Notes: generated from the sequence alone by a model not told the origin. Counted from the first letter of the stretch, positions 7,495-64,000 are shown. The stretch is DNA of 64,000 nucleotides from a bacterium (GCA_965240465.1 OZ251219.1:448001-512000), one strand, 5' to 3'. Numbers and translations are program-made.

Positions 7495-9303
7495 TTGAAC
7501 AAAAAAATACTGGCTATATTTTGGTTAATTTCCATGCTGATGCCTACCTCAGCTTTAGCACGAGATGTGTTTACCGACCGATCATCATTGTTAAGCATCA
7601 TAGAGTTTGGGGTGGTGTTCTTGGCAGCGTATCAGCTGGCATTTTATTTTTTCGTAAAAAATCAACTCCAAGTTCTATTAGAATTACATTTTATCGGTTG
7701 GGGATTGTACTTGTTTGGCATTTTATCACCTCTGTCAAAGAGTGTTAGTGATCTTGCCCTTAACTTTGACAATGAGTACTGGAATTTTGTAATAGGAGCT
7801 TTTGGAGTTGCGTTATTAATGTATGTAGCCAAACAGAACCCTACTCCTATCAACCGTTATGTTAAGCCTTTTCAACTGGGGATGATCGGCTTTTTTGGCT
7901 TTAGTGTAGTCATAGGTTTAGGACGAGCTGATATTGCTCTTACCTTGATTGCCAGCCCTATTCCTCATATTATTTTAGCTTGGCTGATAGCTGCTTCTTG
8001 GCTGAGCAATTCTTATATCCACTATAAATATCAGAAACATGAAAAACACCCCCATAAAATTAATTGGCTACCAGAACTATTCCTAGGATGCGGTTGGGGA
8101 CTTACCCTACTAGCCATCTTGTTGGGGAGCTGGGGAACAAATCGCTGGTTGCCCGTTGGTACGGAATTTTATCTGGTGAACATTATCTTTATGGTCTGCA
8201 GTCCTATCTTAATTATTCAGCTAGGAGGTTTCTTAAGGAATGTTCAACAGCAACGGTCCGAAGCCATGGATGATGTGCTTTTGGAAAAAGACAAGGTACT
8301 TTTAGAAAAAGACAAGGTCCGTCGTATAACAGACACCGCCGATAAATTCATTCCCAAACAGTTTTTGGAACTGCTAAGCAAGAAGGAAGTCACCGAAATA
8401 CACAATGGAGAAGCCGTCGAGCGGAATCTGACTGTACTGTTTTCTGATATTTGTACTTTTACTCGCTTGTCGGCTAACATGAGCCCTGAGGAAAATTTTG
8501 AATTTCTGAACAATTATTTCAATGGGATGGGAAATATCGTCTATCGTCATAGTGGCTTCATAGATAAATTCATTGGCGATGCTATTATGGCTATTTTTGG
8601 CCGCCAGCCAGAAGATGCTATTGAATGTGCCATTTTACTCCAAAGATGGTTACGCTTGTACAACCTTCTTCGTAAAGATAAAAACTCAAATCCCATTATT
8701 ACCGGAATAGGCATTAACTCCGGACCCACCATGATTGGAGTACTAGGCACCAACAATCGCTTAGATAGCACTGTCATCGGCGATACCGTTAATTCAGCTT
8801 TTCATGTGGAAGCCCTCACCCGTTTTTACGATGCTAAGATACTGATTACCGAAAACACCTACCAAGGACTTAAAAACCCTGCTCAATTCCCTGTTAGGAA
8901 TCTGGGTAGCACCCACATAAAGGGACACAATGATACCCTAAATATCTACGAAGTGCTGGCAGGCGACCCCCCTGATATTCGTAATAAAAAAATCTCTCTC
9001 ACTCCCTATTATGAAACTGCCATTGTTCGTATCAAGGAAAACAAATACGAAGACGCCCTCGCCCTTCTTAAAAAATGCCTAGTATGTTACCCACAAGATA
9101 AACCCTCCTGCTTGCAAATTGACCGTTGTATTAAAGGCATTCAAGAACAAAAAACTGCTTCGCATTATAAAATTTCCACCTCTCTACCAATCGAAACCAC
9201 CGCAGAATACCCCCATACAAAAATCACGGGGGTGACCTCCGATGTGAATAAACCAGAATCTCTCTCCGATGAAGAACAAATGAGGACCATCCTCCCTAAC
9301 TGA
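7495..9303 (+). CDS. Membrane-bound class III adenylate/guanylate cyclase
   Basis: About 7 N-terminal TM helices; VLFSDICTFT, DKFIGDAIMA, GIGINSG, VIGDTVN motifs. Confidence 0.9.
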   Translation: MNKKILAIFWLISMLMPTSALARDVFTDRSSLLSIIEFGVVFLAAYQLAFYFFVKNQLQVLLELHFIGWGLYLFGILSPLSKSVSDLALNFDNEYWNFVIGAFGVALLMYVAKQNPTPINRYVKPFQLGMIGFFGFSVVIGLGRADIALTLIASPIPHIILAWLIAASWLSNSYIHYKYQKHEKHPHKINWLPELFLGCGWGLTLLAILLGSWGTNRWLPVGTEFYLVNIIFMVCSPILIIQLGGFLRNVQQQRSEAMDDVLLEKDKVLLEKDKVRRITDTADKFIPKQFLELLSKKEVTEIHNGEAVERNLTVLFSDICTFTRLSANMSPEENFEFLNNYFNGMGNIVYRHSGFIDKFIGDAIMAIFGRQPEDAIECAILLQRWLRLYNLLRKDKNSNPIITGIGINSGPTMIGVLGTNNRLDSTVIGDTVNSAFHVEALTRFYDAKILITENTYQGLKNPAQFPVRNLGSTHIKGHNDTLNIYEVLAGDPPDIRNKKISLTPYYETAIVRIKENKYEDALALLKKCLVCYPQDKPSCLQIDRCIKGIQEQKTASHYKISTSLPIETTAEYPHTKITGVTSDVNKPESLSDEEQMRTILPN

Positions 9304-9430
9304 TAACTAACTACTGGTGAGAATCCTTACCCAAATCATCGCACAAATCCTTGCCAAAACTCCACCGAATAAACTGATACTCCCCACCCCTCCTCTCGCA
9401 CTACTGCAGACACTCTTATCGCAGGCACTC

Positions 9431-10369
9431 TTATCGCAGGCACTTCTCAAAAAAAGCAATCGTAGGCACTAACCCCTCCCGCAAACCAACCTTAGGCTTC
9501 CAACCTAACTGACGCTCTGCTAATCCAATGTCGGGACATCTCTGCCTGGGCTCATCTTCGCGAGCTGGCAGATATTTTATGTCCGAGCGTGAATTGGTCA
9601 ACTCTCTTATTGTATCTGCCAACTCCAACATATTTATCTCGGTCGGATTACCCAAATTCACAGGCCCCACTAATCCCTCCTTGTTCATCATCAAATGCAT
9701 CCCTTCTACCAAATCGGAAACATAACAAAATGAACGCGTCTGAAGTCCAGACCCATAAAGGGTCAAAGGCTTATTTCGCAACGCCTGACAAATAAAATTG
9801 CTCACCACCCGTCCATCGTCTGGTTGCATAAAGGGCCCGTAAGTATTGAAAATACGTACCAAACACACATCCACCCCATATTGCCGATAATAATCCATCA
9901 GCAACGATTCAGAAGCTCGCTTGCCTTCGTCATAGCAAGAGCGTACCCCCAATGGATTAACATTCCCCCAATAATCCTCAGTCTGAGGATGCTGCTGAGG
10001 ATCCCCATACACCTCTGAAGTAGAAGCAAATAACAACCGAGTTCCTTTTCCTCTGTCTCTCAGAGCCTCTAGTACCCGCAACATCCCCAAAACGCATGTA
10101 CGCCAAGTACCTACCGCATCCCGTTGATAATGCACCGGAGACGCAGGACACGCCAAATGATACACCGCTACCATCTCACTCAAATCCACCCCATCACACA
10201 CATTTCCCTCCCGAACCCGAAAATCCTTTCCCAATAAAGAACTCACATTCCCCTTACTGCCAGTATAAAAATTATCCATACAGCACACCCGATGACCCGC
10301 CTCCAACTCCATCCGACATACATGGCTGCCTATAAAACCCGCACCCCCAGTTATCAACACATTCTTCAT
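9431..10369 (-). CDS. UDP-glucuronate decarboxylase (UXS-type) NAD-dependent epimerase/dehydratase
   Basis: TGGAGFIGSH, HLACPASPVHYQ, ASTSEVYGDP, YDEGKR, RIFNTYGP. Confidence 0.93.
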   Translation of the reverse strand: MKNVLITGGAGFIGSHVCRMELEAGHRVCCMDNFYTGSKGNVSSLLGKDFRVREGNVCDGVDLSEMVAVYHLACPASPVHYQRDAVGTWRTCVLGMLRVLEALRDRGKGTRLLFASTSEVYGDPQQHPQTEDYWGNVNPLGVRSCYDEGKRASESLLMDYYRQYGVDVCLVRIFNTYGPFMQPDDGRVVSNFICQALRNKPLTLYGSGLQTRSFCYVSDLVEGMHLMMNKEGLVGPVNLGNPTEINMLELADTIRELTNSRSDIKYLPAREDEPRQRCPDIGLAERQLGWKPKVGLREGLVPTIAFFEKCLR

Positions 10370-10617
10370 CCACTGCTTTCCGTAAAAAATCTACCCAAAT
10401 ACCGATATGCCTAGTACCTCTGCTGGCAATTCATGATCAACCCCTTTAATTCCCCTATTATCCTGTCTGCGATATGGTAGCAAGTTTTATAATAAATTCT
10501 AAATATGTAAGCAGAGTAAAAATAGTACTCATTTACACCAGTAGCCTGCCAAAGTGGTTTGAAATATGAGAGGATAACAAGAGCAATTATTTGGCTTGTT
10601 GTTGATGGAGAAATCAA

Positions 10618-12351
10618 GTGGGAGAGTGTAAAGGATTAGCTCAGCGTTTACGTCCGAAGCTATTTAAGGAGTTACTAGGTCAAGAGTTAACCGCAGAGGC
10701 TTTAAGTACAGCCGTGAGTAGTGGTCGTTTGGCACAGGCATTTTTGTTTAGTGGCCCTAGGGGTGTAGGCAAGACCAGTGCAGCTCGCATTTTGGCTCGG
10801 GCGTTGTTGTGTGAGCATCGTGGTGAGGGAGGAGAGCCGTGCAATAATTGTGATATTTGTGAGTCCATTCTCAGGAATGCCTGTGTGGACGTGCAAGAAA
10901 TGGATGCTGCTTCTAATCGGGGGATAGACAGTATTCGGGAGTTGCGTAAGAACGCCAAGTATGTTCCTTCTCGGGCATCTCGTAAGGTGTACATTATGGA
11001 TGAGGTGCATATGCTGACGATGGAGTCCTTCAATGCCTTATTGAAGATATTGGAAGAACCTCCCCCGCATGTGACCTTTATTTTTGCTACCACAGAATCC
11101 CAGAAAATACCTAGTACGGTGCTTTCCCGATGTCAGCGTTTTCAATTTGCTAGATTATCAGGAGAACAGATAGCCAAGCATTTAGGGGAGGTTGCCCGAC
11201 AAGAGGGAGCTGAGTTATCAGAACGCAGCTTATCAGCCTTATCTCAGCATGCCCATGGTAGCATGCGGGATGCCCTAATGGGCTTAGATCAAATATGGGC
11301 ATTCGCAGGTAAAAAAGCCCAAGCTGGCAAGATCCTGGAAATGCTGGGCTTGCTGGAAGCAAATGCAGTCTGGCAAGTGCTAGAAGCTGTGCTAGAACAA
11401 CAACCAGCTAAGGCTCTGGTAGCCCTAGATGAAGTCTATCAGCAAGGAGGATCCCTAGGCACACTCCTAGGACAATTGATAGAAGAAGTCAGCGGACTGA
11501 GCATGCTACTAGCTTTGCAGTCAAATTCGCCCGAGCTTAAAAATAATTCAGAGATCCTCTCAGCCGCCCGTATCTCGGTAGAAGCCCGAGATTTTCTAGC
11601 CCGAGCAGAGCTCTCAACCGATGTTCTACAGCAGCTGTTTTATGTCTTGCTGGAGGCAGAACAGCACATGCGCCAAAGCAGATTTGAAAAAATGTGCCTA
11701 GAAATGGCGATACTAAAGGGTTGCCAGCTAAAATCACTAGCAGGAATAGGGTTTCTACTAGAAGAAGCCCGCCACGCCGTCCAAAGCGATAAAATAGAAC
11801 GGGATAAAATAGAGCATGGTAAAATAGAGCGGGATGCCACAGAACAGGGTACCGCAGGGCAGAATAATACTCATGATAAGCTACCCTCTGTCTCTAATAC
11901 TGAAAACTCCCCCAAACCCACAAACCAGCCCCCAGCTCAGACCGTAGAACAGGCAGAACCCCAGCAAGCCAGCTCGGCAGAAACAAGCAATCCCGTCCTC
12001 ACCGATCCCGTCCTCACCGATCCCGTCCTCACCGATCCCGTCCTCACCGATCCCGTCCTCACCGATCCCGTCCTCACCGATCCCGTCCTCACCGATCCCG
12101 TCCTCACCGATCCCGTCCTCACCACCCCACCAGTCCAACCCTCCCCTTACACCCCCCACAATACCGCACCAACTAAGGCAAATAATCCCAGCTATACCCC
12201 CGCAGAACTTGAAACCCTCCAACACCCCGCGGTTCAGCAAATTAAAAACTCGTTTCCATCCCATGAAATCCTAAAAGTGAAATTAAAAAAACCTCCCAAC
12301 CTCCCTACCCCCCTCACCCCCCACATCTCCTCCCCTCCTGATCCCGCCTGA
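10618..12351 (+). CDS. dnaX: DNA polymerase III subunits gamma/tau
   Basis: GPRGVGKTS Walker A, Zn-binding Cys, EMDAASNRGID, DEVHML, SRCQRF. Confidence 0.96.
   Translation: MGECKGLAQRLRPKLFKELLGQELTAEALSTAVSSGRLAQAFLFSGPRGVGKTSAARILARALLCEHRGEGGEPCNNCDICESILRNACVDVQEMDAASNRGIDSIRELRKNAKYVPSRASRKVYIMDEVHMLTMESFNALLKILEEPPPHVTFIFATTESQKIPSTVLSRCQRFQFARLSGEQIAKHLGEVARQEGAELSERSLSALSQHAHGSMRDALMGLDQIWAFAGKKAQAGKILEMLGLLEANAVWQVLEAVLEQQPAKALVALDEVYQQGGSLGTLLGQLIEEVSGLSMLLALQSNSPELKNNSEILSAARISVEARDFLARAELSTDVLQQLFYVLLEAEQHMRQSRFEKMCLEMAILKGCQLKSLAGIGFLLEEARHAVQSDKIERDKIEHGKIERDATEQGTAGQNNTHDKLPSVSNTENSPKPTNQPPAQTVEQAEPQQASSAETSNPVLTDPVLTDPVLTDPVLTDPVLTDPVLTDPVLTDPVLTDPVLTTPPVQPSPYTPHNTAPTKANNPSYTPAELETLQHPAVQQIKNSFPSHEILKVKLKKPPNLPTPLTPHISSPPDPA
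11990..12123. repeat. Perfect 15-bp tandem repeat (atcccgtcctcaccg, 9 copies) encoding (PVLTD)n in DnaX
   Basis: Direct reading. Confidence 0.97.
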
Positions 12352-13008: not shown

Positions 13009-16000
13009 ATGCGAAGGATAGAAATATTCACCAAGTCATCCTACCCAGATCCCCTCGGGGAGAAATTAAAGCAACGCATCAATAAAGAAAGCAAATTCAC
13101 TCTAAAAAACCTAAGAACTGCTAATATCTACAAGATGGCTGATGATTTTCTGCCCTCCCAGTCACCTGAAAATCTACGCCAACTAGGTCAGGAATTATTT
13201 GCCGATCCAGTGCTTTCCCAGTGCTGTGTCAATGGCGAGCTGCTAAGAGAACCAGACTTTGACTGGTATGTAGAGGTAGGTTTCAAGCGTGGGGTAACCG
13301 ACAGCCTCGGACGCACCGCTCAAGAAAATCTCTGCTGGCGTTGCAACATCCCCACCCCCCCCATTCAATCGGTGTTCAGTACCCAGGGTTATTTCCTATT
13401 CCTAAGCAATGAATTAGACAAAGATGAAATCCTCTACCTAGCTGAAAACTGGATGGCTAATCCGCTGGTGCATGATGTAGACCCTTTGTCTAAGCAGGAG
13501 ATAGAGTTCATCAATGATTATTTGGCAAAAACAGAATACAAGAACATAACTCATGATAAAATATTCGTTGATCTGCCATCACAATTTTTCTCCTTACCCC
13601 AAGTAGAATTAAGTGCTCCGTCCATTAAATTACACCTACTTGATGTCACCAACCCACAACCGCTGTCTGAGGATATATTGCTATTCTTGTCTAGGGATAG
13701 AACGCTAGCCTTGTCTGAAGAGGAACTCAAAGCCTTGGTGAACCATTTCATTAGCCCAAAAATCCAAGAGCAGCGAAAAAAAATAGGCTCGGAGGAATTC
13801 TTTACTAATGTGAAGCTGGAAGAATGCATTACCGATGTGGAGCTAGAAGTACTGGCACAAACTTGGAGTGAACACTGCCTGCATAAGATATTCAAGGCTC
13901 GCATTCACTATCAAGAGGGATCTGAAAAACCCAGCTGTATTAATTCCCTATTTGATACTTATATTAAAGGAGCGACCCAAGCGATCCGCAAAAAACTAGG
14001 CCAGCGAGACCACTGCTTATCGGTATTTGTGGATAATGCGGGAGTTATGCTTTTGGATGATAATTGGGGCTTGGCAGTTAAGGTGGAAACTCATAATACG
14101 CCTTCGGCACTGGATCCCTATGGGGGAGCTTTAACGGGCATTTTAGGGGTTAATCGGGATGCCTTTGGAACTGGCAGAGGGGGTAAGTTAATATTCAATA
14201 CCGATGTATTTTGCCTAGCTCCGCCTGATGATGATCCACCGATCGGTAGTGATTTATTAGCCCCTAGTCGTATCATGGAGGGGGTCATTCGGGGGGTGGA
14301 GCATGGAGGAAATGTATCTGGCGTACCTACGGTAAATGGCTCCCTGTGTTTTGATGCCCGCTTTATGGCTAAGCCGCTAGTTTTCTGTGGCAGCGGAGCC
14401 TTGATTCCTCGCCAGTTGGGGGGTCGTCCAGGGCATGAGAAATGGGTCGCAGTCGGAGATTTAGTTGTCATGTGCGGGGGACGCATTGGTCGGGATGGCA
14501 TCCATGGGGCAACTATTTCCTCGCAGGAACTCAAGCGGGACATTCCCTTAGGGGTGGTGCAAATTGGGGATCCCATCACCCAAAAGAAGCTGTTTGATTT
14601 CCTCCTCCTAGCCCGCGATCGGGGCTTATTTAATGCCATCACCGATAATGGTGCGGGGGGATTATCTTCTTCGGTAGGAGAAATGGCGATCATGAGCGGA
14701 GGGGCAAAATTGCACTTAGAGCGTGCTCCCTTAAAATACAAGGGCTTGCAGCCTTGGGAGATTTTGCTTTCTGAATCCCAAGAACGCATGACTCTGGCAG
14801 TTCCTCCGGCCCAAGAAAAAGAGCTTTTGCAGCTGGCAGCAGAAATGCAGGTAGAGTGTACCGTACTAGGTGAATTTACTGACTCGGGGCAATTTGTCAT
14901 TTATCATAAGGGAAAAATAGCAGGCTACTTGGATATGGATTTCCTCCATCACGGCACACCCCAGATGGAACTGAAAGCCGAATGGAAGGCCCCAGTTTAT
15001 CATCCTGAGTTTTCATCAAAGCCTGCCCCCGCTGGTGACCTAACCGCTTGGCTACTACGAGTGCTAGGACGCTTAAATGTGTGTAGTAAGGAGAGCATTG
15101 TGCGTCAATACGATCATGAAGTACAAGGATGCTCGGTGATAAAGCCTCTTTGCGGTGAAGGTCAAGATGGTCCCAGTGATGCTGCCGTACTGAGGACAAG
15201 CCCCGATAGCCCTGCTGGCATTGCGATAGCCCATGGCATTTGCCCTCGCTACGCCGATTGGGACACCTACAACATGGCTGCCTGTGCTATGGATGAGGCA
15301 GTACGCTCCTTGGTGGCAGTGGGTGCTGATCCCAGTCACGCGGCGGCTTTGGATAATTTCTGTTGGTGCGACCCTTTACCGTCTGCCAGCAATCCTGATG
15401 CCAGCTATAAAACGGCTCAATTAGTACGGGCCGCCCGAGCTCTTTATGACACCGCTTGTGCCTACCAAATTCCCTTTATCTCGGGCAAGGACAGCATGAA
15501 AAACGACTTTGTGATGGGTAATTTCCGCCTATCCATTCCTCCCACCGTGCTGGTCACTGCCGTTGCCGTTGTCCCCGAGGTACAAAGAGCGATTTCCATG
15601 GACGTCAAAAAACCCGGCGATTTGGTTTATATCATCGGACGCAGCAGGGGAGAAATGGGTGGCTCTGAGTTCCTAGCCGAATTCTTGCCAGCAAAACATA
15701 CCGAAAAGAACCTATCCTCCGCTGATTCCCATCCTCCCAAACTTTACGGACATCCCCCGAAAACTTATCCTGAGGAACATCTGAAAATATATCAAAAGAT
15801 GTATAACGCCATCCAAAAGGGTTGGATTTGCTCTGCTCATGATTGCTCCGATGGCGGTGCTGCCGTTGCTTTGGCAGAGAGTGCCTTCGCGGGAGGCTAT
15901 GGCATGCGGCTCCAGCTAAAAGCTTGGATAAAGAAGGAAAAACTCCCTCTGGCACAACTGCTTTTTTCGGAAAGCCCCGGGCGTTTGATTGTAACCATTA

Positions 16001-16179
16001 GACCACAGCACCAAAAATCCTTTGAAGAAAAATTCGCAGAGACCTCCTATTGCTTGCTAGGCAAGGTTACCGAAGACCAAAATTTCACTGCCTTAAACGA
16101 AAAATCCACCAGCCTGAATACTACTTTAGAAACCCTTAAAAAAACTTGGCAAGAACCCCTTAAGCACTCCCCCCCTTAA
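13009..16179 (+). CDS. purL: Phosphoribosylformylglycinamidine synthase subunit PurL with N-terminal PurS-like extension
   Basis: QTWSEHCLHKIF, KVETHNTPS, DNGAGGLSS, LSESQERM, SGKDSM, HDCSDGG, LFSESPGR. Confidence 0.95.
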   Translation: MRRIEIFTKSSYPDPLGEKLKQRINKESKFTLKNLRTANIYKMADDFLPSQSPENLRQLGQELFADPVLSQCCVNGELLREPDFDWYVEVGFKRGVTDSLGRTAQENLCWRCNIPTPPIQSVFSTQGYFLFLSNELDKDEILYLAENWMANPLVHDVDPLSKQEIEFINDYLAKTEYKNITHDKIFVDLPSQFFSLPQVELSAPSIKLHLLDVTNPQPLSEDILLFLSRDRTLALSEEELKALVNHFISPKIQEQRKKIGSEEFFTNVKLEECITDVELEVLAQTWSEHCLHKIFKARIHYQEGSEKPSCINSLFDTYIKGATQAIRKKLGQRDHCLSVFVDNAGVMLLDDNWGLAVKVETHNTPSALDPYGGALTGILGVNRDAFGTGRGGKLIFNTDVFCLAPPDDDPPIGSDLLAPSRIMEGVIRGVEHGGNVSGVPTVNGSLCFDARFMAKPLVFCGSGALIPRQLGGRPGHEKWVAVGDLVVMCGGRIGRDGIHGATISSQELKRDIPLGVVQIGDPITQKKLFDFLLLARDRGLFNAITDNGAGGLSSSVGEMAIMSGGAKLHLERAPLKYKGLQPWEILLSESQERMTLAVPPAQEKELLQLAAEMQVECTVLGEFTDSGQFVIYHKGKIAGYLDMDFLHHGTPQMELKAEWKAPVYHPEFSSKPAPAGDLTAWLLRVLGRLNVCSKESIVRQYDHEVQGCSVIKPLCGEGQDGPSDAAVLRTSPDSPAGIAIAHGICPRYADWDTYNMAACAMDEAVRSLVAVGADPSHAAALDNFCWCDPLPSASNPDASYKTAQLVRAARALYDTACAYQIPFISGKDSMKNDFVMGNFRLSIPPTVLVTAVAVVPEVQRAISMDVKKPGDLVYIIGRSRGEMGGSEFLAEFLPAKHTEKNLSSADSHPPKLYGHPPKTYPEEHLKIYQKMYNAIQKGWICSAHDCSDGGAAVALAESAFAGGYGMRLQLKAWIKKEKLPLAQLLFSESPGRLIVTIRPQHQKSFEEKFAETSYCLLGKVTEDQNFTALNEKSTSLNTTLETLKKTWQEPLKHSPP

Positions 16180-16207
16180 GCACTCCCGCCCCTTAAGCAC
16201 TCCCCAC
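16159..16207. repeat. About 17-bp tandem repeat (ccttaagcactccc.., 3 copies) spanning the purL stop codon
   Basis: Direct reading. Confidence 0.85.
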
Positions 16208-16240
16208 CCGCAACCACTCATACTCTAAGTACCCCCCACC

Positions 16241-52753: not shown

Positions 52754-52763
52754 GGTTGGGCTG

Positions 52764-54248: not shown

Positions 54249-54731
54249 ATGAACCTCATCAACCGACAACTGCTCCTCCAAATAGCTCCCCTGCGTTGGA
54301 TACTAGGACGCAAAAATACCCTCGCCCGACCATATCCCCTATACCTAGCCCTAACTGCCACCATATTCTCAGCCGAAATCATCCGTCTGGCTCGCCATAC
54401 CCTAAACTACCATACGTACCAACTCACCCTCGCCTTCCACATCCTCAGCGGTTCTCTGTTGACCATCTTCTTCATCAAGCGTATGATCCAAACGGCATAT
54501 TCCATGTCTCACCAACTCCAAAAACCAAAACCCCTCCCCCTGACCTTTAACTTAGTACTCACTCTCCTGATCCTCACTGGACTCCTGCGTACCTTCCAAC
54601 TACGAACCAACCTCAGCTTACCCAGCTGGGTCGCTCCGCTCCACGGAGCTCTAGCACCTTATATCTGGCTTCTGGTGCTTCTATTATTCAAGCAATTTTG
54701 GAGCAAATCTAAGAAATCCCATCTAAAGTGA
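54249..54731 (+). CDS. Four-TM membrane protein, probable reduced cytochrome b (HyaC/FdnI-like) subunit
   Basis: Four hydrophobic helices; AFHILSG in TM2, LILTG in TM3, PLHGAL in TM4; third gene of the operon. Confidence 0.6.
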   Translation: MNLINRQLLLQIAPLRWILGRKNTLARPYPLYLALTATIFSAEIIRLARHTLNYHTYQLTLAFHILSGSLLTIFFIKRMIQTAYSMSHQLQKPKPLPLTFNLVLTLLILTGLLRTFQLRTNLSLPSWVAPLHGALAPYIWLLVLLLFKQFWSKSKKSHLK

Positions 54732-55023: not shown

Positions 55024-56826
55024 ATGGCTAATGAACGCAAGACTGAAAATATAGTTAGAAAACATTTCTATCAATTTTCAGATTCCATATCAATAGAAGA
55101 ACAAAGTTCTGATAACCCTAAAATTGATAAATTGCTTAGAAATGCGTCTAAAAAGGGGTTGGGTAAAGGTTATCCTGAATTTATTATTACTCATAATACT
55201 AATTCTGATTTACTAATTGTTATTGAATGTAAGGCAAATATTTTAAAGCATGAAAGTAATGATAAAGATAAATATTCTGAGTTTGCAGTTGATGGAGTTT
55301 TACTTTACGCTTCTTATTTGTCAAAAAGCTATGATGTGTTAGCTGTTGCAGTAAGTGGAGAAGAAGAATCATCATTAAGGATTTCTCATTTCCTACATCT
55401 AAAAAATGATAAAAAATCCACTAAAATTTTTGGAGGCAAACTGCTATCTGTTGATAATTATTTAAATGGATATTTGGAAAAACCAGAAAAAATAAATCAA
55501 GATTATAATACGCTTTTATACTTTACAAAAAAATTAAACAAAAAGTTACATGGTTATAAAATTCCTGAAGACAAAAGAAGCTTATTAATTAGTTCAATTT
55601 TAATCGCACTAGAAGCCAATAGTTTTAAAGAATCTTATTCTTCAGATAAGAGACCTAAAGATTTAGCTGGTAGACTTGTTCAAACTGCTACTAATGAATT
55701 AGAAAATGCTAATATCACAGGGAGGAAACTTCAATACATAAATACTGCATTTGGTTTTATAAAAGAAGATACTTCTTTATCTGAAACAGAAAATGTCTTA
55801 AAAGAAATTATTTATGACATTGATGAAAATATAAATAATTTTACCAAAAATAACAAATATACTGATGTTTTAGGACAATTCTATATTGAATTTTTAAGAT
55901 ACTCAAACAGTGATAAGGGTCTCGGGATCGTTTTAACCCCTCCACATATTACAGAATTTTTTGCAGATTTAGCACAAGTCGATAAAGATTCAATTGCTTA
56001 TGATAACTGTACAGGAACAGGCGGATTTTTAATTAGTGCTATGAAAAAAATGATTGAAGATGCAAAAGATGATGAAGAAAAAATCAAAGAAATAAAATTA
56101 AAACAACTTATTGGAACAGAATATCAACCACATATTTTTGCTTTGGCAGTTTCAAATATGTGTATCCACCAAGACGGAAAAACAAATATTACAAAGGGTA
56201 GTTGTTTTGATAAAAAAGTTATTGATGCAATAAAAAGTGAAAAGCCCACAGTCGGATTTTTAAATCCTCCTTATAAATCAAATAAAAAAGACGATACAGA
56301 CGAATTAAAATTTATTTTAAATAATTTAGATTGTTTAGTTCATGATGGAACCTGTGTTGCTATTGTGCCAATGCAAAGTGCCTTAGCGACCAGCGGTAAA
56401 GTTTTAGGATTTAAAAAGATGCTTCTTGAAAAACACACATTAGAAGCGGTTTTATCGATGCCTAATGAATTGTTTCATAATTCAAAGGTAAACGTTGTTT
56501 CTTGTGTTATGGTTTTTAGGGCCCATAAACCACATTTAGAAAACAAAAAAACATTTTTTGGTTATTTTAAAGATGATGGATTTGTTAAAACAAAAAATAG
56601 AGGTAGAGTAGATGCTGACAATAAATGGAAAGTAATAAGAGACAGATGGTTATCTGCTTACAGCAATAAAGAAAACATTACAGGTTTTAGCGTTATGCAA
56701 AAAGTAACATCACATGATGAATGGTGTGCTGAGGCTTATATGGAAACTGATTATTCAAATTTAACAGAAAAAGATTTCATTAATACAGTTAAAGAATATA
56801 TTGCTTTTAGGGTAAAGTATGGATAA
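55024..56826 (+). CDS. BcgI-like (type IIB/IIG) restriction-modification alpha subunit: endonuclease plus N6-A MTase
   Basis: GYPEFII...VIECKA nuclease; LGIVLTP, DNCTGTGGFL, FLNPPY; very AT-rich. Confidence 0.88.
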   Translation: MANERKTENIVRKHFYQFSDSISIEEQSSDNPKIDKLLRNASKKGLGKGYPEFIITHNTNSDLLIVIECKANILKHESNDKDKYSEFAVDGVLLYASYLSKSYDVLAVAVSGEEESSLRISHFLHLKNDKKSTKIFGGKLLSVDNYLNGYLEKPEKINQDYNTLLYFTKKLNKKLHGYKIPEDKRSLLISSILIALEANSFKESYSSDKRPKDLAGRLVQTATNELENANITGRKLQYINTAFGFIKEDTSLSETENVLKEIIYDIDENINNFTKNNKYTDVLGQFYIEFLRYSNSDKGLGIVLTPPHITEFFADLAQVDKDSIAYDNCTGTGGFLISAMKKMIEDAKDDEEKIKEIKLKQLIGTEYQPHIFALAVSNMCIHQDGKTNITKGSCFDKKVIDAIKSEKPTVGFLNPPYKSNKKDDTDELKFILNNLDCLVHDGTCVAIVPMQSALATSGKVLGFKKMLLEKHTLEAVLSMPNELFHNSKVNVVSCVMVFRAHKPHLENKKTFFGYFKDDGFVKTKNRGRVDADNKWKVIRDRWLSAYSNKENITGFSVMQKVTSHDEWCAEAYMETDYSNLTEKDFINTVKEYIAFRVKYG

Positions 56827-57799
56827 AAACATACCTATTAGAGAAATTTTTAGTATTCAATATGGTAATCAATTAGATTTAAACAAGCAAGTTGAGTGTA
56901 AATCTGGAATTAATTTTGTCAATCGTTCTAATAAAAATTTAGGCATATCTACCAAGATTAAAAAGATTGAGGGTATTGAGCCTTTTGAAAAAGGCTTGAT
57001 TACTGTTGCACTAGGTGGGAGCATATTGTCTGCTTTTGTGCAACCATGTCAGTTTTATACAGGACAAAATGTAAAAATTTTAAAACCAAGAGAACCAATA
57101 GATGAAAGTATTAAAATATTTTACTGTATGTGTATATCTCAAAATGCCTATAGATATAGTGCTTTCGGCAGAGAAGCAAATAAAACATTTGATAATTTAT
57201 TAGTCCCACATTCTGATGAATGTAAAAAAATAATTGCTAATTATTCAACACCTAAACAACCATCAGAAAAACCATGTTTAGAAAATAAAGGTCTTAGTCT
57301 ATGGGATAGAGAATGGAGATATTTTAATTTATGTGAATTATTTAATATAAGTGGGTCAAGGAGTTTTACAAAAAAAGAAATTCAAGAATATGGAATAGGG
57401 AATTACCCTTATGTAGTCACTTCGTCAGAAAATAATGGGACAGAAGGCTTTTATAATAAATGTACTGAAAAAGGGAATGTTCTTACTATAGATAGTGCTA
57501 CTGTAGGTAGTTGTTTTTACCAACCTATAGATTTCTCAGCTTCAGATCATGTAGAAAAATTGATACCTAAATTTAGTATGAATGTATTTATTGCACTATT
57601 TTTGCGAACGACTATAAATCTAGAAAGAATCAGATATGGATATGGGAGGAAATTTGCACAAATGAGGATAAAAAATACAAGGATCAAACTTCCAGTCAAA
57701 GAAAGAAAAAAAGAAGCTTACGACCCCGATTGGCAATTTATGGAAGATTATATAAAAGCATTACCTTACAGTAGCAATCTGCAAATTGATGAGTTTTGA
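56819..57799 (+). CDS. HsdS-like specificity (beta) subunit with two TRDs
   Basis: Two repeated halves (FYTGQNV..YSAFGREAN / FSASDHV..YGYGRK), IKLPV...PDWQFMEDYIK; overlaps the alpha-subunit stop. Confidence 0.85.
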   Translation: MDKNIPIREIFSIQYGNQLDLNKQVECKSGINFVNRSNKNLGISTKIKKIEGIEPFEKGLITVALGGSILSAFVQPCQFYTGQNVKILKPREPIDESIKIFYCMCISQNAYRYSAFGREANKTFDNLLVPHSDECKKIIANYSTPKQPSEKPCLENKGLSLWDREWRYFNLCELFNISGSRSFTKKEIQEYGIGNYPYVVTSSENNGTEGFYNKCTEKGNVLTIDSATVGSCFYQPIDFSASDHVEKLIPKFSMNVFIALFLRTTINLERIRYGYGRKFAQMRIKNTRIKLPVKERKKEAYDPDWQFMEDYIKALPYSSNLQIDEF

Positions 57800-57903
57800 G
57801 GCGTTAGTTCAAGAAAATATTTTTGGAATAAGCGACTGATATCTATGATATTTGTCTTTGTTTTGTATATTTATTTTGGTGTCAAGTATATAGTTCCCTT
57901 TTT

Positions 57904-58788
57904 TTATTGTTGCCAGATTCGTTTCCAGAAGGCGGAGATGGCTGGGCGGTGTTGTGTGGCTTGTTTGGGGTATTGCTGGTGGATATTATGGGCGATTTGT
58001 TGAATATGCAGGCTAGCGGCTGAATGAGGGAATAGTTTAAGTAGGGGTTGTCTATTACGTACTGCGGTAGGGATGGCGGTATCTTGGGGGATATGCCCTA
58101 GCAGGGGGAGAGGTATGTTGAGGAATTGGAAGCAGGCTTGTTGCATTTTTTGGTGTACGTGTTTAGTTTCTTGAGGAGAGCGGGATTGGTTGATGATGAG
58201 TGAGAATTGGGTTTTGTGATGTTGGAGTCGGAGGAGTTTAATAAGGGCATAGGCATCTGTAAAAGAAGTTGGTTCTGGTGTAGTCACCACGATGATTTGG
58301 TCGGCGGCGGCGTTGAATTGGAGTACCTGAGGAGAGATACCGGCGGCGGTATCTAGTATCCAGTCATCGGTGTTCCAGGGTATTTGGGCGAGGTTTTGGA
58401 GCAAGCGAGTTTGTCCTTCAGTTTCTAGTTGTACGAGTTGATTAATTCCTGAGGCTGAGGGCAGGATTTTAATACCACTGGGTCCATTGAGGGCAATATC
58501 TGCGAGGGACAATTTACCATTGAAGGTATCTTCTAGGGTATATTTTGGTTGTATTCCGAGCAGGATGGGTATATTGGCGAGTCCGATATCAAGATCTATC
58601 AGGGTGATTTGTCTTTTAAGTTTAGCTAGTGCGATTGCTAGATTAAGGGCGAGGTTGCTTTTACCGACTCCTCCTTTGCCGCTGGCGATGGAAATAACTC
58701 TTCCTTTTATGGCTGGGCTGGGTGCTAGCGATGCGTGAATACGCCTAAGACTGGTGGCTTGGTCTGCAGACATCAGGGATTGGTGCAT
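57904..58788 (-). CDS. flhG: Flagellar number regulator FlhG/FleN (MinD family)
   Basis: DQATSLR N-terminus, SGKGGVGKS, DLDIGLAN, DTAAGIS, TPEPTSFTDAYALIK; downstream of flhF. Confidence 0.92.
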   Translation of the reverse strand: MHQSLMSADQATSLRRIHASLAPSPAIKGRVISIASGKGGVGKSNLALNLAIALAKLKRQITLIDLDIGLANIPILLGIQPKYTLEDTFNGKLSLADIALNGPSGIKILPSASGINQLVQLETEGQTRLLQNLAQIPWNTDDWILDTAAGISPQVLQFNAAADQIIVVTTPEPTSFTDAYALIKLLRLQHHKTQFSLIINQSRSPQETKHVHQKMQQACFQFLNIPLPLLGHIPQDTAIPTAVRNRQPLLKLFPHSAASLHIQQIAHNIHQQYPKQATQHRPAISAFWKRIWQQ

Positions 58789-58873
58789 TTGATCAGAGGT
58801 GACGACAAGTTTTATGGATGATATTTATGCTTAGCATCCTCTAGTCCGCGTGGGGGTATTTTAGCGGTGTTTT

Positions 58874-59124
58874 TTGGCAGTGTCCTCTTGGCAGCGTTCT
58901 TTTGATGGTGTTCTCTCGGCAGTGTTCCCTCGGCAGTGTCCTCTTGGCAGTGTTTTTTTGATGGTGTTCTCTCAGCAGTGTTCTTTTGGCAGTGTTCTTT
59001 TGGCAGTGTTCTTTTGGCAGTGTCCTCTTGACAGCGTTATCTCGGCAGCGTTCTCTCAGCAGTGTCCTCTCGGCAGCGTTCTCTTGACAGCGTTCGCAGT
59101 GTCCTCTTGGCAGCGTTTTCTCGG
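58874..59124. repeat. 14-bp minisatellite (tggcagtgttcttt-like, about 18 copies) between flhF and flhG
   Basis: Direct reading. Confidence 0.93.
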
Positions 59125-59166
59125 ATAGGGCGTGGTCGGAAACTCAGAGTAGTAGCTTTATCAATT

Positions 59167-60660
59167 TCAAGCTTCGCTGGAGATTTGAAGTAGTAAGTCA
59201 ATCAATCTTTCTGGGGTAGCTATTTCCATATCTTCGGGTACTCGCTGACCGGTGGTCAGGTAGTTAATGGGCAGTTTGAAACGAATAAAGTGATTAAACA
59301 GTGAGCCGCAATGCATACATTCATCCAATTTGGTGAACAAGACCGATTTTAGAGGCAGGCAACCAAATTTGCGGGTAGTATCAATGAGTTCGGCATCTTT
59401 GGTGGTAGCACTGAGTACCAGACAGATGTCCAGCTGGGGATTATTTTGGAACATTCCCTTTAGTTCTTTCATCTGGGGGAGATCACTTTGCGAGCGACCT
59501 GCGGTATCAACCAGTACCACATCGTAGCTTTGGAACTCTTCCAGAGCTCGGTGTAAATCAGTGCGATCTCTCACCACCGATAATGGCAGATTCATTATCT
59601 TGGCATAGGCTTTTAACTGCTCTAAGGCTCCTATCCTGAAGGTGTCCACCGTTATCAAAGCCGTCTTACGCTTATAGCGTAGCACTTGCTCGCTCGCTAG
59701 CTTAGCCACCGTGGTCGTTTTTCCCACCCCCGTACAACCCACCAACACCAACACCTTCTCACCCGATAAACCACCAGTGGTCTTCACTAAACTAGTTAAC
59801 ATCCGTGCCAAAAAAATCTTTACATAAGTGAAATCTTCTCGCTTTTCAGGCGGTAATCGTTTGGCAGCCTGCTCTACCAAACGCTTAGCAAATTTCTCCT
59901 CCAAACCATGAACCACCAAATGCTGCTGCAAACCCATTAAGGTCTCTGGTAAATCCAAACCCACCTTCAAACCCCCTCCCTGCAACGCTTGCACTGCCTG
60001 CCGCATATCTGTTAACTCATGGTGCAACTGACGCATTGCATGACCTCCCAGTCCCTCCTCCTCCTTCACCACTTTTAGCAACTGCTTCAACTGATGAACT
60101 TCACTACATAAACCTCGCAAAACCGAATCCCGCTCCGCCATGCCTGACCGAACAACTTGATCACTAACTTCTACCACCCTCGCTGACCCCCCTCCATCTC
60201 CCCTTCCTCCAAACGAAGTACCCCCACTTGACCCCTCCTGACCTGCCCCCTCCTGACCTGCCCCCTCCTGACCTGCCCCCTCCTGACCTGCCCCCTCCTG
60301 ACCTGACCCCTCGCCAGACGCTCCCCCACCTGCTCTCCCATTTGCTCCCTCGCCAGATGCTCCCCCACCTGCTCTCCCATTTGCCCCCTCAACCACTCCC
60401 TCCTTTTCCTTCGCCGCACTCCCCTCTGCCAATCCTACTGCCTCCCTCTCCATATCAAAACGACCAACCCCCCTCGACTCACCAACACCCCCTTCTTCAG
60501 GCCTCACCGCAGCTACCTCCCATAACTGACGCCTCAAAAACGGAATCCCCACTCTCCGCAACTGACGAGTAGATAAAATCAGGGCATCCCCACCCAAATC
60601 CTGACGGGTTTTTTGCAGGGCTTCCCGCATGTCAGCCCCTCGATAGTGCTTCACACCCAT
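59167..60660 (-). CDS. flhF: Flagellar SRP-family GTPase FlhF
   Basis: DLGGDALILST, GCTGVGKTTTVAKLA, DTFRIGA, DTAGRS, TKLDE, GQRVPED. Confidence 0.95.
   Translation of the reverse strand: MGVKHYRGADMREALQKTRQDLGGDALILSTRQLRRVGIPFLRRQLWEVAAVRPEEGGVGESRGVGRFDMEREAVGLAEGSAAKEKEGVVEGANGRAGGGASGEGANGRAGGGASGEGSGQEGAGQEGAGQEGAGQEGAGQEGSSGGTSFGGRGDGGGSARVVEVSDQVVRSGMAERDSVLRGLCSEVHQLKQLLKVVKEEEGLGGHAMRQLHHELTDMRQAVQALQGGGLKVGLDLPETLMGLQQHLVVHGLEEKFAKRLVEQAAKRLPPEKREDFTYVKIFLARMLTSLVKTTGGLSGEKVLVLVGCTGVGKTTTVAKLASEQVLRYKRKTALITVDTFRIGALEQLKAYAKIMNLPLSVVRDRTDLHRALEEFQSYDVVLVDTAGRSQSDLPQMKELKGMFQNNPQLDICLVLSATTKDAELIDTTRKFGCLPLKSVLFTKLDECMHCGSLFNHFIRFKLPINYLTTGQRVPEDMEIATPERLIDLLLQISSEA
60232..60390. 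repeat. 15-bp repeat (QEGAG, 5 copies) and 39-bp duplication (EGANGRAGGGASG, 2 copies) in the FlhF linker
   Basis: Direct reading. Confidence 0.92.
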
Positions 60661-60790
60661 ATCTCATACCTTCCTTAGCATTGACACATCCACACACCTA
60701 GTAATGACTACCAATGCCTCCTTGACATTGTCTGGATACCAGATCGTCATCGTATAACATAAGTGCCTGCTATCACAAATTAATCCTTCC

Positions 60791-63431: not shown

Positions 63432-63459
63432 GCTTAGCTACTTAAAGGTGGAAAACGCA

Positions 63460-63568
63460 CGGGGGGCTAAAAAGCAGGTGACCAAAAGTCAGGGGCTAAA
63501 AAGCGGGTGACCAAAAAGCAGGTGACCAAAAAGCAGGGGACTAAAAAGCAGGGGGCTAAAAAGCAGGT
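63460..63568. repeat. 15-bp tandem repeat (ggkgrcyaaaaagca-like, about 7 copies)
   Basis: Direct reading; between the PBP gene and ddl. Confidence 0.9.
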
Positions 63569-63569
63569 C

Positions 63570-64000
63570 TTACTTGGATAAAGAATCTGGCAGTGGGTCT
63601 GAAGGTCTAAAGTAGTAGACATTGCTAGCGGGGCAATTGGAATAGATTTTTTTGGTATCTAGGTCGCAGAGTATTTTGGAGTGAAAGGCTTGGTTAGGGG
63701 ATGAGAAGGCTTTTGGTGGTTCTCTGTTAACGACTGCTTGCATGAATTCCTTCCAGATGATGGCTGGATCTTGGCCGCCGGATTTGTATATTAAGGGGTA
63801 GTTGTTATCATTACCCATCCAGATGCCGGCGGCTATTTGGGAAGTGAAGCCGATGAACCATACATCTCGGGCGTTGTCGCTGGTGCCAGTTTTGCCGGCG
63901 GCGGGGGTGCCTTTGAGACGAGCTCTCCAGCCGGTGCCGTGGGTAAGAACTCCTTGGAGGATGTGCCTAATTTGAAAGGCAGTCCAAGTGGAGATTACTC
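63570..64000 (-). CDS. Class A penicillin-binding protein (PBP1A-like), 3' end only
   Basis: Manual extension: GTGWRA..AGKTGTSDNARDVWFIGFTSQIAAGIWMGND; ORF continues beyond the window. Confidence 0.88.
   Translation of the reverse strand, partial: VISTWTAFQIRHILQGVLTHGTGWRARLKGTPAAGKTGTSDNARDVWFIGFTSQIAAGIWMGNDNNYPLIYKSGGQDPAIIWKEFMQAVVNREPPKAFSSPNQAFHSKILCDLDTKKIYSNCPASNVYYFRPSDPLPDSLSK

What the first reader, a model, noticed from the sequence alone, without database searches (positions are those of the whole stretch)
9300..64000. Kilobase-scale sawtooth strand skew resetting at transcription-unit boundaries
Seen by eye: the + strand repeatedly drifts from strongly G/T-rich to strongly C/A-rich, then flips back abruptly. 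Approximate flips: 10.5k (divergent), 17.2k (convergent), 33.1k, 42.5k, 45.5k, 48.75k, 51.7k, 57.85k, 58.85k, 60.8k. In coding-strand terms, units start G/T-rich and end C/A-rich whatever their orientation (51782-52750 versus 53500-54700; dnaX 5' versus 3'; flhF and uxs 5' ends; mnmE and msbA 3' ends). The effect shifts amino-acid composition (G/V/W/R/E early, P/T/N/Q/H late). Established: bacteria normally show one skew switch per replichore, and Rho loads on C-rich/G-poor RNA. Inference: either selection for Rho-dependent termination at 3' ends and Rho avoidance at 5' ends (I saw few intrinsic terminators), or strand-asymmetric deamination spreading from intergenic sites (dispersed replication initiation or bidirectional transcription). 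The AT-rich R-M genes appear to lack the pattern.
Basis: partly seen in the sequence, partly recalled or inferred. Interest (0 to 1): 0.78.

Follow-up and report, generated by a model that had tools for sequence, protein, structure and literature searches.

The report
Gene-by-gene G-to-C skew sawtooth
In this small-genome bacterium and its one sister species, most genes start rich in G and end rich in C on their own sense strand, even at silent codon positions; the pattern is real, strong and so far without an established cause.

Summary
GC skew in 1-kb windows has SD 0.178, against 0.07-0.08 in two larger relatives. At fourfold-degenerate sites, sense-strand GC skew falls 0.237 per kb from each gene start (95% CI 0.207-0.267; 689 genes). 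The sister genome G001 gives 0.252; relatives G008 and G009 give 0.010 and 0.002.

Of 84 abrupt upward jumps, 71 lie at gene boundaries (27% expected). Of 45 abrupt downward jumps, 32 lie inside genes.

The unit is the gene, not the operon. Genes that abut their upstream neighbour reset just as fully, and position within the operon explains almost nothing.

At silent sites the change is mainly G for C, with A and T flat. This does not fit simple cytosine deamination. The profile, including switch points inside genes, is conserved between the two species.

A single dnaA-linked origin argues against dispersed replication. rho, ung-type UDG, mutS, mutL, mfd, rnhA and topA are all present.

The cause is unresolved. 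I favour a strand-asymmetric substitution bias tied to transcription-translation over Rho-linked selection. The closest precedent is in fungi, with opposite polarity.

The parts
10463..10463 (.). Abrupt upward skew jump (+0.51) in the divergent gap between the epimerase/dehydratase gene (9431-10369, -) and dnaX (10618-12351, +)
   Evidence: Pfam names
10618..12351 (+). dnaX: sense-strand GC skew falls from +0.30 to -0.62 along the gene
13009..17065 (+). purL (1056 aa) and purQ: slow rise inside purL (jumps at 13124 and 14021), then decline to -0.39. The same internal profile is seen in the G001 orthologue
17283..17283 (.). Strongest upward jump in the window (+0.63), at a convergent boundary (purQ end / mnmE end)
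17255..18634 (-). mnmE: + strand skew runs from +0.55 at its 3' end to -0.25 at its 5' end, so the sense strand is G-rich early and C-rich late
33110..36235 (-). mraW and the PBP (ftsI-like) gene: one decline that runs across two same-strand genes
42600..45444 (.). ABC exporter (msbA-like, -) and histidine phosphatase (+): the decline continues across a divergent gap with no reset (skew -0.50 within the gap)
45503..45503 (.). Upward jump (+0.54) at a convergent boundary
51703..51703 (.). Upward jump (+0.52) ahead of the hydrogenase-like operon
51782..54731 (+). Most extreme unit. The NiFe-hydrogenase-like small subunit has skew +0.4 to +0.63. The switch falls at 52827-53439. The rest of the large subunit and the third gene have skew -0.45 to -0.56
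55024..57799 (+). AT-rich (27-32% GC) type I restriction-modification M and S genes, with flat mildly positive skew and no gradient
57839..57839 (.). Upward jump (+0.46) at a convergent boundary (R-M S gene end / ParA-MinD-like gene end)
57904..60660 (-). SRP54-type GTPase (flhF-like) and ParA/MinD-like gene: + strand skew runs from +0.57 to -0.63, with the downward switch at 59722 inside the flhF-like gene
60783..60783 (.). Upward jump (+0.48) between two same-strand genes

Best explanation
Shown. This is a gene-anchored gradient in strand composition, specific to one lineage. On the sense strand of most resident genes, G is high and C is low at the 5' end. The balance reverses over about 1-1.5 kb, often as a fairly sharp switch at a gene-specific place, and it resets at the next gene start. 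Seen on one DNA strand, this gives a sawtooth whatever the gene orientation. It adds to an ordinary replication skew from a single origin. It arose in the common ancestor of this reduced-genome genus, whose relatives are labelled SAR324 / Lambdaproteobacteria in record titles, and it has been maintained in both species.

Inferred. I think the most likely cause is a strand-asymmetric substitution bias coupled to transcription of translated genes. Near each gene start, the nascent sense RNA is not yet covered by ribosomes. The non-template strand is then the one exposed or damaged and loses C. Further into the gene, the balance tips to the other strand, for example through untranslated antisense RNA. 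Because G-rich, C-poor RNA forms stable hybrids and escapes Rho, such a bias could reinforce itself. That would account for the two-state look and the conserved switch points.

The chemistry that exchanges G for C is not explained by this account.
For: Silent sites and all codon positions are affected.
- The fourfold-site slope is -0.237 per kb, seen within all 8 fourfold codon families.
- At twofold sites, G/(A+G) falls from 0.487 to 0.324 and C/(C+T) rises from 0.340 to 0.404.
- Positions 1 and 2 shift the same way.

The pressure acts on the DNA region, not through the protein. G000's local third-position skew tracks its own position-1/2 skew (r = 0.24-0.44). It does not track the position-1/2 skew of the orthologue in G008 or G009 (r = 0.05 and -0.05).

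The amplitudes are large. Third-position skew runs from +0.9 to -0.6 within mutS. Gene-level GC3-skew SD is 0.31, against 0.13-0.14 in relatives.

The pattern is lineage-specific and accompanies genome reduction and a fall in GC.
- It is present in G000 and G001.
- It is absent from G008 and G009.
- In three further family loci, 0 of 45 1-kb windows exceed |0.08|.
- Low-GC, presumably foreign, genes lack it.

The reset is gene-level whatever the gap to the upstream gene.

Among the 8 most G-rich genes looked up, 5 are integral-membrane families. All 6 of the short C/A-rich genes looked up are soluble enzymes. Membrane-like genes carry +0.062 G and -0.059 C at fourfold sites after correcting for codon family.

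A step model beats a linear model in 151 of 220 genes with a significant trend. When the simulated truth is linear, the step model wins in 50 of 150.

Switch points are conserved between species. Of 143 orthologue pairs, 29 have a strong step in both genomes, and all 29 are downward. The median position difference is 0.071 of gene length, against 0.185 under permutation. After removing each gene's linear trend, 60-codon windows still correlate at r = 0.45. Silent sites are meanwhile close to saturation: identity is 0.365 against 0.254 expected at random.

The C-rich maximum lies inside reading frames, not in 3' untranslated DNA.
Against: - At fourfold sites along genes, A and T are flat (A 0.244 to 0.235; T 0.306 to 0.320) while G falls from 0.228 to 0.139 and C rises from 0.222 to 0.305. 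Deamination of an exposed strand should move T and A.
- Direct G<>C differences are the rarest class between the two species, at 0.57 of expectation. They account for only 2 of 103 changes derived in the G000 23S rRNA. No simple mutational route to a G-for-C swap is therefore evident.
- The 23S rRNA gene, which is presumably heavily transcribed but is not translated, shows no asymmetry (C>T 25 against G>A 23) and no change in skew profile relative to G008.
- No repair or transcription gene that I searched for is missing only in this genus. UDG, Rho, Mfd, RNase HI, MutS, MutL, TopA and DnaA are all present. Y-family polymerase is not found in G000 and G001, but it is not found in G009 either.
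- About 30% of genes show no decline, and 32 of 671 show a significant rise.
- There are no expression, R-loop or polymorphism data, so the exposure and feedback steps are pure inference.
Confidence: 0.4

Rival explanations
1. Selection on the G/C content of transcripts for Rho. RNA near each gene start is ribosome-free and must avoid Rho loading, so it is G-rich and C-poor. Later parts are C-rich and G-poor, so that untranslated or read-through RNA is terminated. This would matter more in a genome with few intrinsic terminators.
For: - rho is present.
- At fourfold sites the exchange is G for C with A and T flat, which matches a preference defined on G and C alone. That Rho prefers C-rich, G-poor RNA is recalled knowledge.
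- The reset occurs at every reading frame, including genes that abut their upstream neighbour.
- Intrinsic-terminator-like 3' flanks are found in 14% (G000) and 18% (G001), against 38% (G008) and 23% (G009). The window shows no excess over shuffles.
- Direct G<>C mutation appears rare, so a fixation bias is attractive.
- rRNA is exempt from the pattern.
Against: - The C-rich maximum is 50-150 nt before the stop codon. In tandem pairs the sense-strand skew is already +0.08 to +0.10 from 50 nt after the stop.
- The relatives also have rho but show no gradient.
- Holding third-position skew at +0.9 or -0.8 over about 1 kb, and shifting amino acids as well, needs strong selection on very many sites in a reduced genome.
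- The C-rich halves make the antisense RNA G-rich, and therefore Rho-resistant.
Confidence: 0.22
2. Promoter- or site-centred bidirectional process. Transcription fires both ways from intergenic regions, and the non-template strand is deaminated with an effect that decays with distance.
For: - Upward jumps occur at divergent, tandem and convergent gaps alike.
- In long gaps, the skew turns positive 150-250 nt upstream of the start codon.
- GC and TA skew correlate at r = 0.41 in 1-kb windows.
- In the most extreme genes, both C-to-T-like and A-to-G-like codon choices are visible.
Against: - Full resets occur where the upstream gene is less than 15 bp away or overlaps.
- Some divergent gaps show no reset, for example 44.5-44.8k.
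- A and T are flat at fourfold sites.
- Consensus promoter-like sites are not enriched: 38 against 38.6 +/- 6.4.
Confidence: 0.1
3. Adaptive tuning of RNA polymerase speed or nucleotide supply. This is the CTP-limitation idea proposed for fungi, applied here with the opposite polarity.
For: - C is the base that varies most between the two regimes (0.167 against 0.428 at fourfold sites).
- The idea is set out in the Discussion of PMC3315797.
Against: - It does not explain why 3' halves become richer in C than in relatives.
- No nucleotide-pool data exist.
- I did not test the nucleotide-synthesis gene set.
Confidence: 0.05
4. Dispersed replication initiation: each upward jump is a small origin.
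For: The polarity of the jumps (the strand leaving the site 5' to 3' is G-rich on both sides) is the same as at a replication origin.
Against: - There is one global skew minimum, next to dnaA, and one maximum.
- The replication skew is additive to the gradient, which is the same in leading- and lagging-strand genes.
- There are 84 strong jumps, anchored to reading-frame boundaries, some with no gap at all.
Confidence: 0.02
5. Assembly or base-calling artefact.
For: None found.
Against: - Reading frames are intact.
- Contigs from public runs match the window with 0 other letters over 1.2-11.4 kb pieces. These may be from the source sample, so they are not independent support.
- A separately assembled sister genome shows the same pattern at orthologous positions.
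Confidence: 0.01

Closest known systems
[quoted passage not shown]
   Same: The gradient is gene-anchored and present at fourfold sites. It alters amino-acid usage at the two ends of genes. AT skew is comparatively uniform. The authors also argue against simple C-to-T deamination. The extreme lies near the stop codon rather than beyond it. The cause is not established.
   Different: The polarity is reversed: fungi run from C-rich to G-rich. Fungal genes are nuclear, transcribed by Pol II and not coupled to translation. The bacterial amplitude seen here is large (slope 0.24 per kb, swings up to +0.9 and -0.8), many genes show a sharp two-state switch, and the pattern is confined to one genus among its relatives.
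Replication-associated GC skew in bacteria; sawtooth 'N-domains' between origins in mammalian genomes (both recalled)
   Same: The upward jumps have the same polarity as an origin, with a roughly linear decline between jumps.
   Different: The scale is 1-3 kb instead of a replichore or about a megabase. The jumps sit at reading-frame boundaries. The true replication skew is present separately and is additive.
G-rich non-template strand downstream of mammalian transcription starts, with R-loop-prone GC skew (recalled; PMC2817419 and PMC4617957 seen only as titles and abstract openings in search listings)
   Same: The sense strand is G-rich in the first kilobase or so of the unit. A link to transcription-associated strand asymmetry has been proposed.
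   Different: No reversal to C-rich at the 3' end is described there. Here the reset is per reading frame, even inside operon-like arrays.
C-rich, G-poor Rho-utilisation regions of bacterial transcripts (recalled)
   Same: The same compositional axis applies (C over G, indifferent to A and U), and the effect is toward the 3' part of units.
   Different: Known rut regions are about 80-100 nt, untranslated and local. Here the C-rich state covers hundreds of translated codons and ends at the stop codon.
Strand-asymmetry gradient of vertebrate mitochondrial DNA (recalled)
   Same: The skews at silent sites are of comparable size. In the most extreme genes here the contrast is keto-rich against amino-rich, and it alters protein composition.
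   Different: Mitochondria have one gradient per genome, set by replication. Here there are hundreds of gene-sized gradients, and on average only G and C move.

Membership tests
Intragenic opposite-end GC skew (fungal type) | Sense-strand GC skew changes sign or level monotonically from 5' to 3' within genes, at fourfold-degenerate sites | tested here: met
   Slope -0.237 per kb [-0.267, -0.207] over 689 genes. All 8 fourfold codon families show it.
Intragenic opposite-end GC skew (fungal type) | Polarity: C-biased at the 5' end and G-biased at the 3' end | tested here: not met
   The polarity is reversed here, G-rich at 5' and C-rich at 3'.
Intragenic opposite-end GC skew (fungal type) | AT skew roughly uniform along genes | tested here: met
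   Fourfold A and T fractions are flat. Fourfold TA skew changes little.
Replication-origin skew switch | One upward switch per chromosome at oriC/dnaA and one downward switch at the terminus | tested here: not met
   That pattern exists separately: minimum at 607,845 beside dnaA, maximum at 1,562,156. The finding consists of 84 further strong jumps at gene boundaries.
Cytosine-deamination strand asymmetry (transcription- or replication-linked) | On the exposed strand C is exchanged for T (and, seen from the other strand, G for A), so GC and TA skews move together at silent sites | tested here: inconclusive
   Along genes, fourfold A and T do not move. Twofold-site ratios do shift: G/(A+G) from 0.487 to 0.324 and C/(C+T) from 0.340 to 0.404. 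Between regimes, T covaries with G but A does not covary with C. 1-kb skews correlate at r = 0.41.
Rho-dependent terminator / rut region | rho gene present | tested here: met
   Rho_RNA_bind match over the curated cut-off at G000:1303649-1303867.
Rho-dependent terminator / rut region | C-rich, G-poor stretch in untranslated RNA just upstream of the termination point | tested here: not met
   The most C-rich bins are 50-150 nt before the stop codon. The skew is near zero or positive after the stop.
Rho-dependent terminator / rut region | Rho-dependent 3' ends mapped at the site | not testable with these tools
   No RNA run was listed for this organism.
   Whole-gene GC3 skew against distance from unit start gives Spearman -0.06 to -0.07 under four gap definitions. 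Genes less than 15 bp behind a same-strand gene reset fully.

The most novel reading that the evidence does not exclude
The genome carries a heritable two-state strand-composition system. Each stretch of a gene sits in a G-rich or a C-rich sense-strand state, and each state maintains itself. Whichever transcript of the stretch (sense or antisense) is G-rich and C-poor escapes Rho and forms stable RNA-DNA hybrids. The displaced strand then loses still more C.

The boundaries between states would then persist as inherited features at gene-specific places, even though the silent sites themselves have turned over. This would amount to a form of sequence-composition memory. It would explain the conserved switch points and the step-like profiles.

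It would also suggest that similar sawteeth noted by this scan in unrelated genomes are outcomes of the same feedback with different set-points.
Probability: 0.12. Interest if true: 0.9.

Novelty: new variant of a known kind. Interest (0 to 1): 0.68.

Why it matters
Bacterial strand asymmetry is usually taught as one switch per replichore plus a constant offset for gene orientation. Here a second layer, anchored to genes, is several times stronger than the replication skew. It reverses sign within single genes and reshapes both silent sites and protein composition. It appeared in one reduced-genome lineage and has held its fine structure across two species.

This gives a natural system for two questions: whether position-dependent, transcription-linked mutation exists in bacteria, or whether Rho-related selection can act on thousands of silent sites.

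There are practical consequences too. Such skews can mislead origin prediction, codon-usage measures, tests of selection on synonymous sites and phylogenetic models that assume stationarity.

I found no description of this pattern in bacteria in four full-text searches. This scan's own earlier notes report comparable sawteeth in a Planctomycetota genome (opposite polarity) and in a giant-virus-like genome (same polarity). The phenomenon may therefore be wider than the literature shows.

Tried and rejected
1. Population variants. One search for public runs listed two holders from one sample, one low-share holder, and no RNA holder. Laying contigs of X1 and X3 on window 42001-62000 gave pieces identical to the window and 151-nt low-depth pieces with 0-2 differences. 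The other differences listed came from foreign high-depth contigs over the R-M genes. No usable polymorphism spectrum came out of this, and nothing can be said about expression.

2. A missing repair or transcription gene. UDG, Rho, Mfd, RNase HI, MutS, TopA, DnaA and MutL are all present in G000 and G001, as they are in G008, G009 and G004. Y-family polymerase was not found in G000 and G001, but it was not found in G009 either, so it does not track the trait. I did not search nusG, endonuclease V, AP endonucleases, mutY or pyrG.

3. Codon-family composition as an artefact. Rejected: the decline is present within each fourfold family.

4. Ancestral protein composition as the driver. Rejected: r = 0.05 and -0.05 against the orthologues' position-1/2 skew.

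5. G or C runs, as R-loop seeds or through slippage. No excess over local composition: G4 1.10 and C4 1.09 of block-shuffled expectation, lower than in the relatives.

6. Context of the following base. It has ordinary effects, similar to those in the relatives.

7. Rearrangement legacy (segments keeping an old orientation). Rejected: falls are gradual and intragenic while rises are abrupt and at boundaries.

8. Double-strand-break resection tracts. As I reason it, the expected polarity is the reverse of what is seen (an abrupt fall at the site). This was not tested further.

9. 23S rRNA as an untranslated test gene. It shows no regime pattern. Structural constraint makes this weak evidence.

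10. purL's internal restart as a relic of a gene fusion. The roughly 1040-aa architecture is family-wide, so it predates the skew. My G009 extract had 3 stops in frame and should not be relied on.

11. One script picked the wrong reading frames. It was redone.

Full report
**What the window is.** The window is bases 448,001-512,000 of a single-contig genome of 1,599,138 bp with 45.4% GC. Marker completeness is 83.6%. Its one same-genus relative, G001, is also a single contig, of 1.72 Mb. Other members of the family have genomes of 2.3-5.2 Mb. Record titles of related loci read SAR324 cluster or Candidatus Lambdaproteobacteria. Three family loci that I profiled have 58-76% GC. G008 has 52% and G009 has 58% GC. 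This genus has therefore both shrunk and lost GC. Genes were called with a simple caller of my own (longest reading frames scored by codon usage), which gave 1243 genes covering 88.5% of the genome. Every gene-based figure below depends on those calls.

- In the window, 1-kb GC skew swings between -0.49 and +0.49. A 300-bp map shows slow declines and abrupt rises.
- With a two-arm 400-bp contrast I find 22 rises of at least 0.25, of which 18 lie within 100 bp of a gene end or in a gap. I find 20 falls, of which 18 lie inside genes.
The one at 58.85k is not.
- Genome-wide, the SD of 1-kb GC skew is 0.178. GC and TA skews correlate at r = 0.41.
- Without using any annotation, abrupt rises outnumber abrupt falls about 2.2- to 2.8-fold at 200-400 bp.
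- Of 84 rises of at least 0.4, 71 are at gene boundaries, against 27% for random positions. Eleven of these are in convergent gaps, which make up 1.4% of the genome. Of 45 falls, 32 are intragenic, about the random share.

At fourfold-degenerate sites, sense-strand GC skew starts at 0.008 and falls by 0.237 per kb (bootstrap 95% interval 0.207-0.267; 689 genes of 800-2500 nt). The fall appears within each of the eight fourfold codon families, by 0.2-0.5 over 1.6 kb. It is therefore not a by-product of amino-acid content. Neither refuting outcome was obtained.

**The unit is the gene.**
- The intercept and slope are the same for four classes of upstream neighbour:
  - a same-strand gene less than 15 bp away: 0.012 and -0.236 (83 genes);
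  - a same-strand gene 15-100 bp away: -0.009 and -0.201;
  - a same-strand gene 100 bp or more away: -0.031 and -0.221;
  - a divergent gene: 0.051 and -0.274.
- Strong jumps occur even at overlapping genes, for example at genome position 668,085.
- Whole-gene skew is almost independent of distance from the start of the transcription unit (Spearman about -0.07 under four definitions).
- The pattern looks independent of orientation on one DNA strand simply because a sense-strand decline reads the same after reverse complementing.
- There are exceptions in the window. The decline runs on across a convergent pair (7.3-10.4k) and across a divergent gap (44.5-44.8k). Three consecutive genes (39.4-41.5k) stay C-rich without a reset.
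- About 30% of genes show no decline. Of 671 testable genes, 188 have a significant negative trend and 32 a significant positive one.

**Which bases move.**
- Along genes, fourfold-site A and T fractions are flat. G falls from 0.228 to 0.139 and C rises from 0.222 to about 0.31.
- At twofold sites, G/(A+G) falls from 0.487 to 0.324 and C/(C+T) rises from 0.340 to 0.404.
- Comparing G-rich with C-rich stretches, C changes most (0.167 against 0.428). It trades with G (0.285 against 0.114) and with T (0.326 against 0.210), while A barely moves.
- Only in the extreme genes is the full G/T against C/A contrast obvious to the eye.
- The signature is therefore mainly a G-for-C exchange with a secondary C-for-T component. 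It is not the plain footprint of cytosine deamination.
- Direct G<>C differences are the rarest class between the two species, at 0.57 of expectation. They make up 2 of 103 changes derived in the G000 23S rRNA, where transitions dominate and are strand-symmetric (C>T 25, G>A 23).

**Shape.** Among the 220 genes with a significant trend, a two-level step fits better than a straight line in 151, worse in 13 and equally well in 56. When the simulated truth is linear, the step model wins in only 50 of 150. For declining genes, mean third-position skew is +0.35 before the switch and -0.33 after it. The switch lies anywhere from a quarter to three-quarters of the way along.

**Phylogenetic spread and conservation.**
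- G001 (400 kb sampled) shows the same features. 1-kb SD is 0.178, the slope is -0.252 per kb, 27 of 30 strong rises are at boundaries and 10 of 13 falls are intragenic.
- G008 (200 kb) and G009 (180 kb) show none of it. SDs are 0.080 and 0.072, slopes are -0.010 and -0.002, and there are two strong rises each.
- In three further family loci, no 1-kb window out of 45 exceeds |0.08|.
- Orthologues in G000 and G001 (median 63% amino-acid identity) have correlated third-position skew: r = 0.70 over 179 pairs, and still 0.64 for the 47 pairs in which neither neighbour is conserved.
- Against G008 and G009 the correlation is 0.06 and 0.05, and the same genes have no gradient there.
- Within genes, 60-codon windows correlate at r = 0.59 between the two species, and at 0.45 after removing each gene's linear trend.
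- Of 143 orthologue pairs, 29 have a strong step in both genomes. All 29 are downward, and switch positions differ by a median of 0.071 of gene length, against 0.185 under permutation.
- Fourfold sites are near saturation (identity 0.365 against 0.254 at random). The pattern has therefore been actively maintained in both lineages rather than merely inherited.

**What goes with it.**
- G000's local third-position skew follows its own first and second positions (r = 0.24-0.44). It does not follow those of the free-living orthologues. The region-wide pressure therefore shapes the proteins, not the reverse.
- Averaged over the genome, the amino-acid shift is modest.
- Low-GC genes (n = 22), such as the restriction-modification genes of the window, lack the gradient.
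- Of eight very G-rich genes looked up, five are integral-membrane families. Six short C/A-rich genes are all soluble enzymes. After correcting for codon family, membrane-like genes carry an excess of G (+0.062) and a deficit of C (-0.059) at fourfold sites.
- A separate class of long GLUG-motif genes is uniformly rich in pyrimidines at third positions and is not part of the gradient.
- Replication contributes an additive term: fourfold intercepts are +0.161 for leading-strand genes and -0.142 for lagging-strand genes, with similar slopes.

**Mechanism.**
- Dispersed replication is very unlikely. There is one skew minimum, beside dnaA.
- A missing repair function is not supported.
- The Rho-selection reading fits the G/C-only axis, the per-gene reset and the scarcity of intrinsic-terminator-like sites. 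Three things count against it. The C-rich peak lies inside reading frames and flips within 50 nt of the stop. The relatives have rho without the pattern. The amplitudes are very large.
- A strand-asymmetric substitution bias tied to transcription of translated genes fits several results: the size of the effect, the involvement of all codon positions, its absence from recently acquired genes, its appearance together with genome reduction and GC loss, and the membrane-protein link. It does not explain the flat A and T or the rarity of direct G<>C change.
- I therefore commit to the mutational, translation-coupled reading at about 0.4, with Rho-linked selection at about 0.2. Which one is right cannot be settled from composition alone, because at equilibrium both predict the same substitution fluxes.
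- The step-like, conserved switch points suggest a self-reinforcing two-state process. I give this as the boldest reading not excluded by the evidence.

**Comparison with what is known.** The nearest described phenomenon is the opposite-end GC skew of fungal genes (PMC3315797; abstract and Discussion read). It shares the gene anchoring, the effect at fourfold sites, the uniform AT skew and the lack of an accepted cause. It has the reverse polarity.

A 2025 paper shows that mutation rate varies with position near bacterial gene starts (PMC12725619; abstract only), but it does not describe a skew gradient.

Four full-text searches found no report of such a gradient in bacteria. This scan's earlier notes describe similar sawteeth in two unrelated genomes. 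I did not check those notes.

Noticed in passing
window 51782-54731: A NiFe-hydrogenase-like operon (small subunit, large subunit and a 160-aa hydrophobic protein). By my reading, the large subunit lacks cysteines at both ends, where nickel-binding motifs are expected (that expectation is recalled). The C-terminus reads ...SSSDAIH. Homologues at 36-42% identity occur in all 18 family genomes searched.
   Followed up: partly
G000:889726-908249, 1344057-1355118, 318631-345810, 704800-713964: A family of long (0.8-1.4 thousand aa) GLUG-motif proteins. All 6 that I looked up carry the motif. Third-position GC skew is -0.6 to -0.86 and TA skew is +0.3 to +0.5, uniform along the gene. This codon-usage class differs from the rest of the genome.
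   Followed up: partly
G000:256160-271494: Four partial copies of the 3' end of rnhA (RNase H profile positions 97-139, each with a stop inside the match) repeat about every 3.1-3.5 kb downstream of the intact rnhA at 255,696-256,100. Each lies beside one of four large (2.7-5.0 kb) minus-strand genes. It looks like a tandemly duplicated block.
   Followed up: no
L086 (G000:1075001-1084500), L087 (G001), L088 (G008): The 23S rRNA gene stands alone in G000 and G001, with no 16S or 5S found within the 9.5 kb fetched. G008 has the usual 16S-tRNA-tRNA-23S-5S operon.
   Followed up: partly
window 31313-33090, 41564-42487, 49820-51579, 55024-57799: A dense set of restriction-modification genes: a D12-class adenine methylase with a HaeIII-like endonuclease, two N6/N4 methylases (one beside a PD-(D/E)XK nuclease), and type I M and S subunits. 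Those at 31-33k and 55-58k are markedly AT-rich.
   Followed up: no
G000:1333144-1340197: An array of about ten consecutive same-strand genes of 410-450 nt each, all mildly G-rich at third positions. This may be a tandem paralogue family.
   Followed up: no
G000 and G001, whole genomes: A single MutS_V match each, against 2-3 in G008, G009 and G004 (a second MutS paralogue is not found). No Y-family polymerase (IMS) match in G000, G001 or G009.
   Followed up: partly
G000:1188005-1190773 (topA): topA has a strong upward restart inside the gene at about 1,189,640. Third-position skew goes from -0.4 to +0.9 over the last third, which roughly coincides with the part beyond the Topoisom_bac core.
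   Followed up: no
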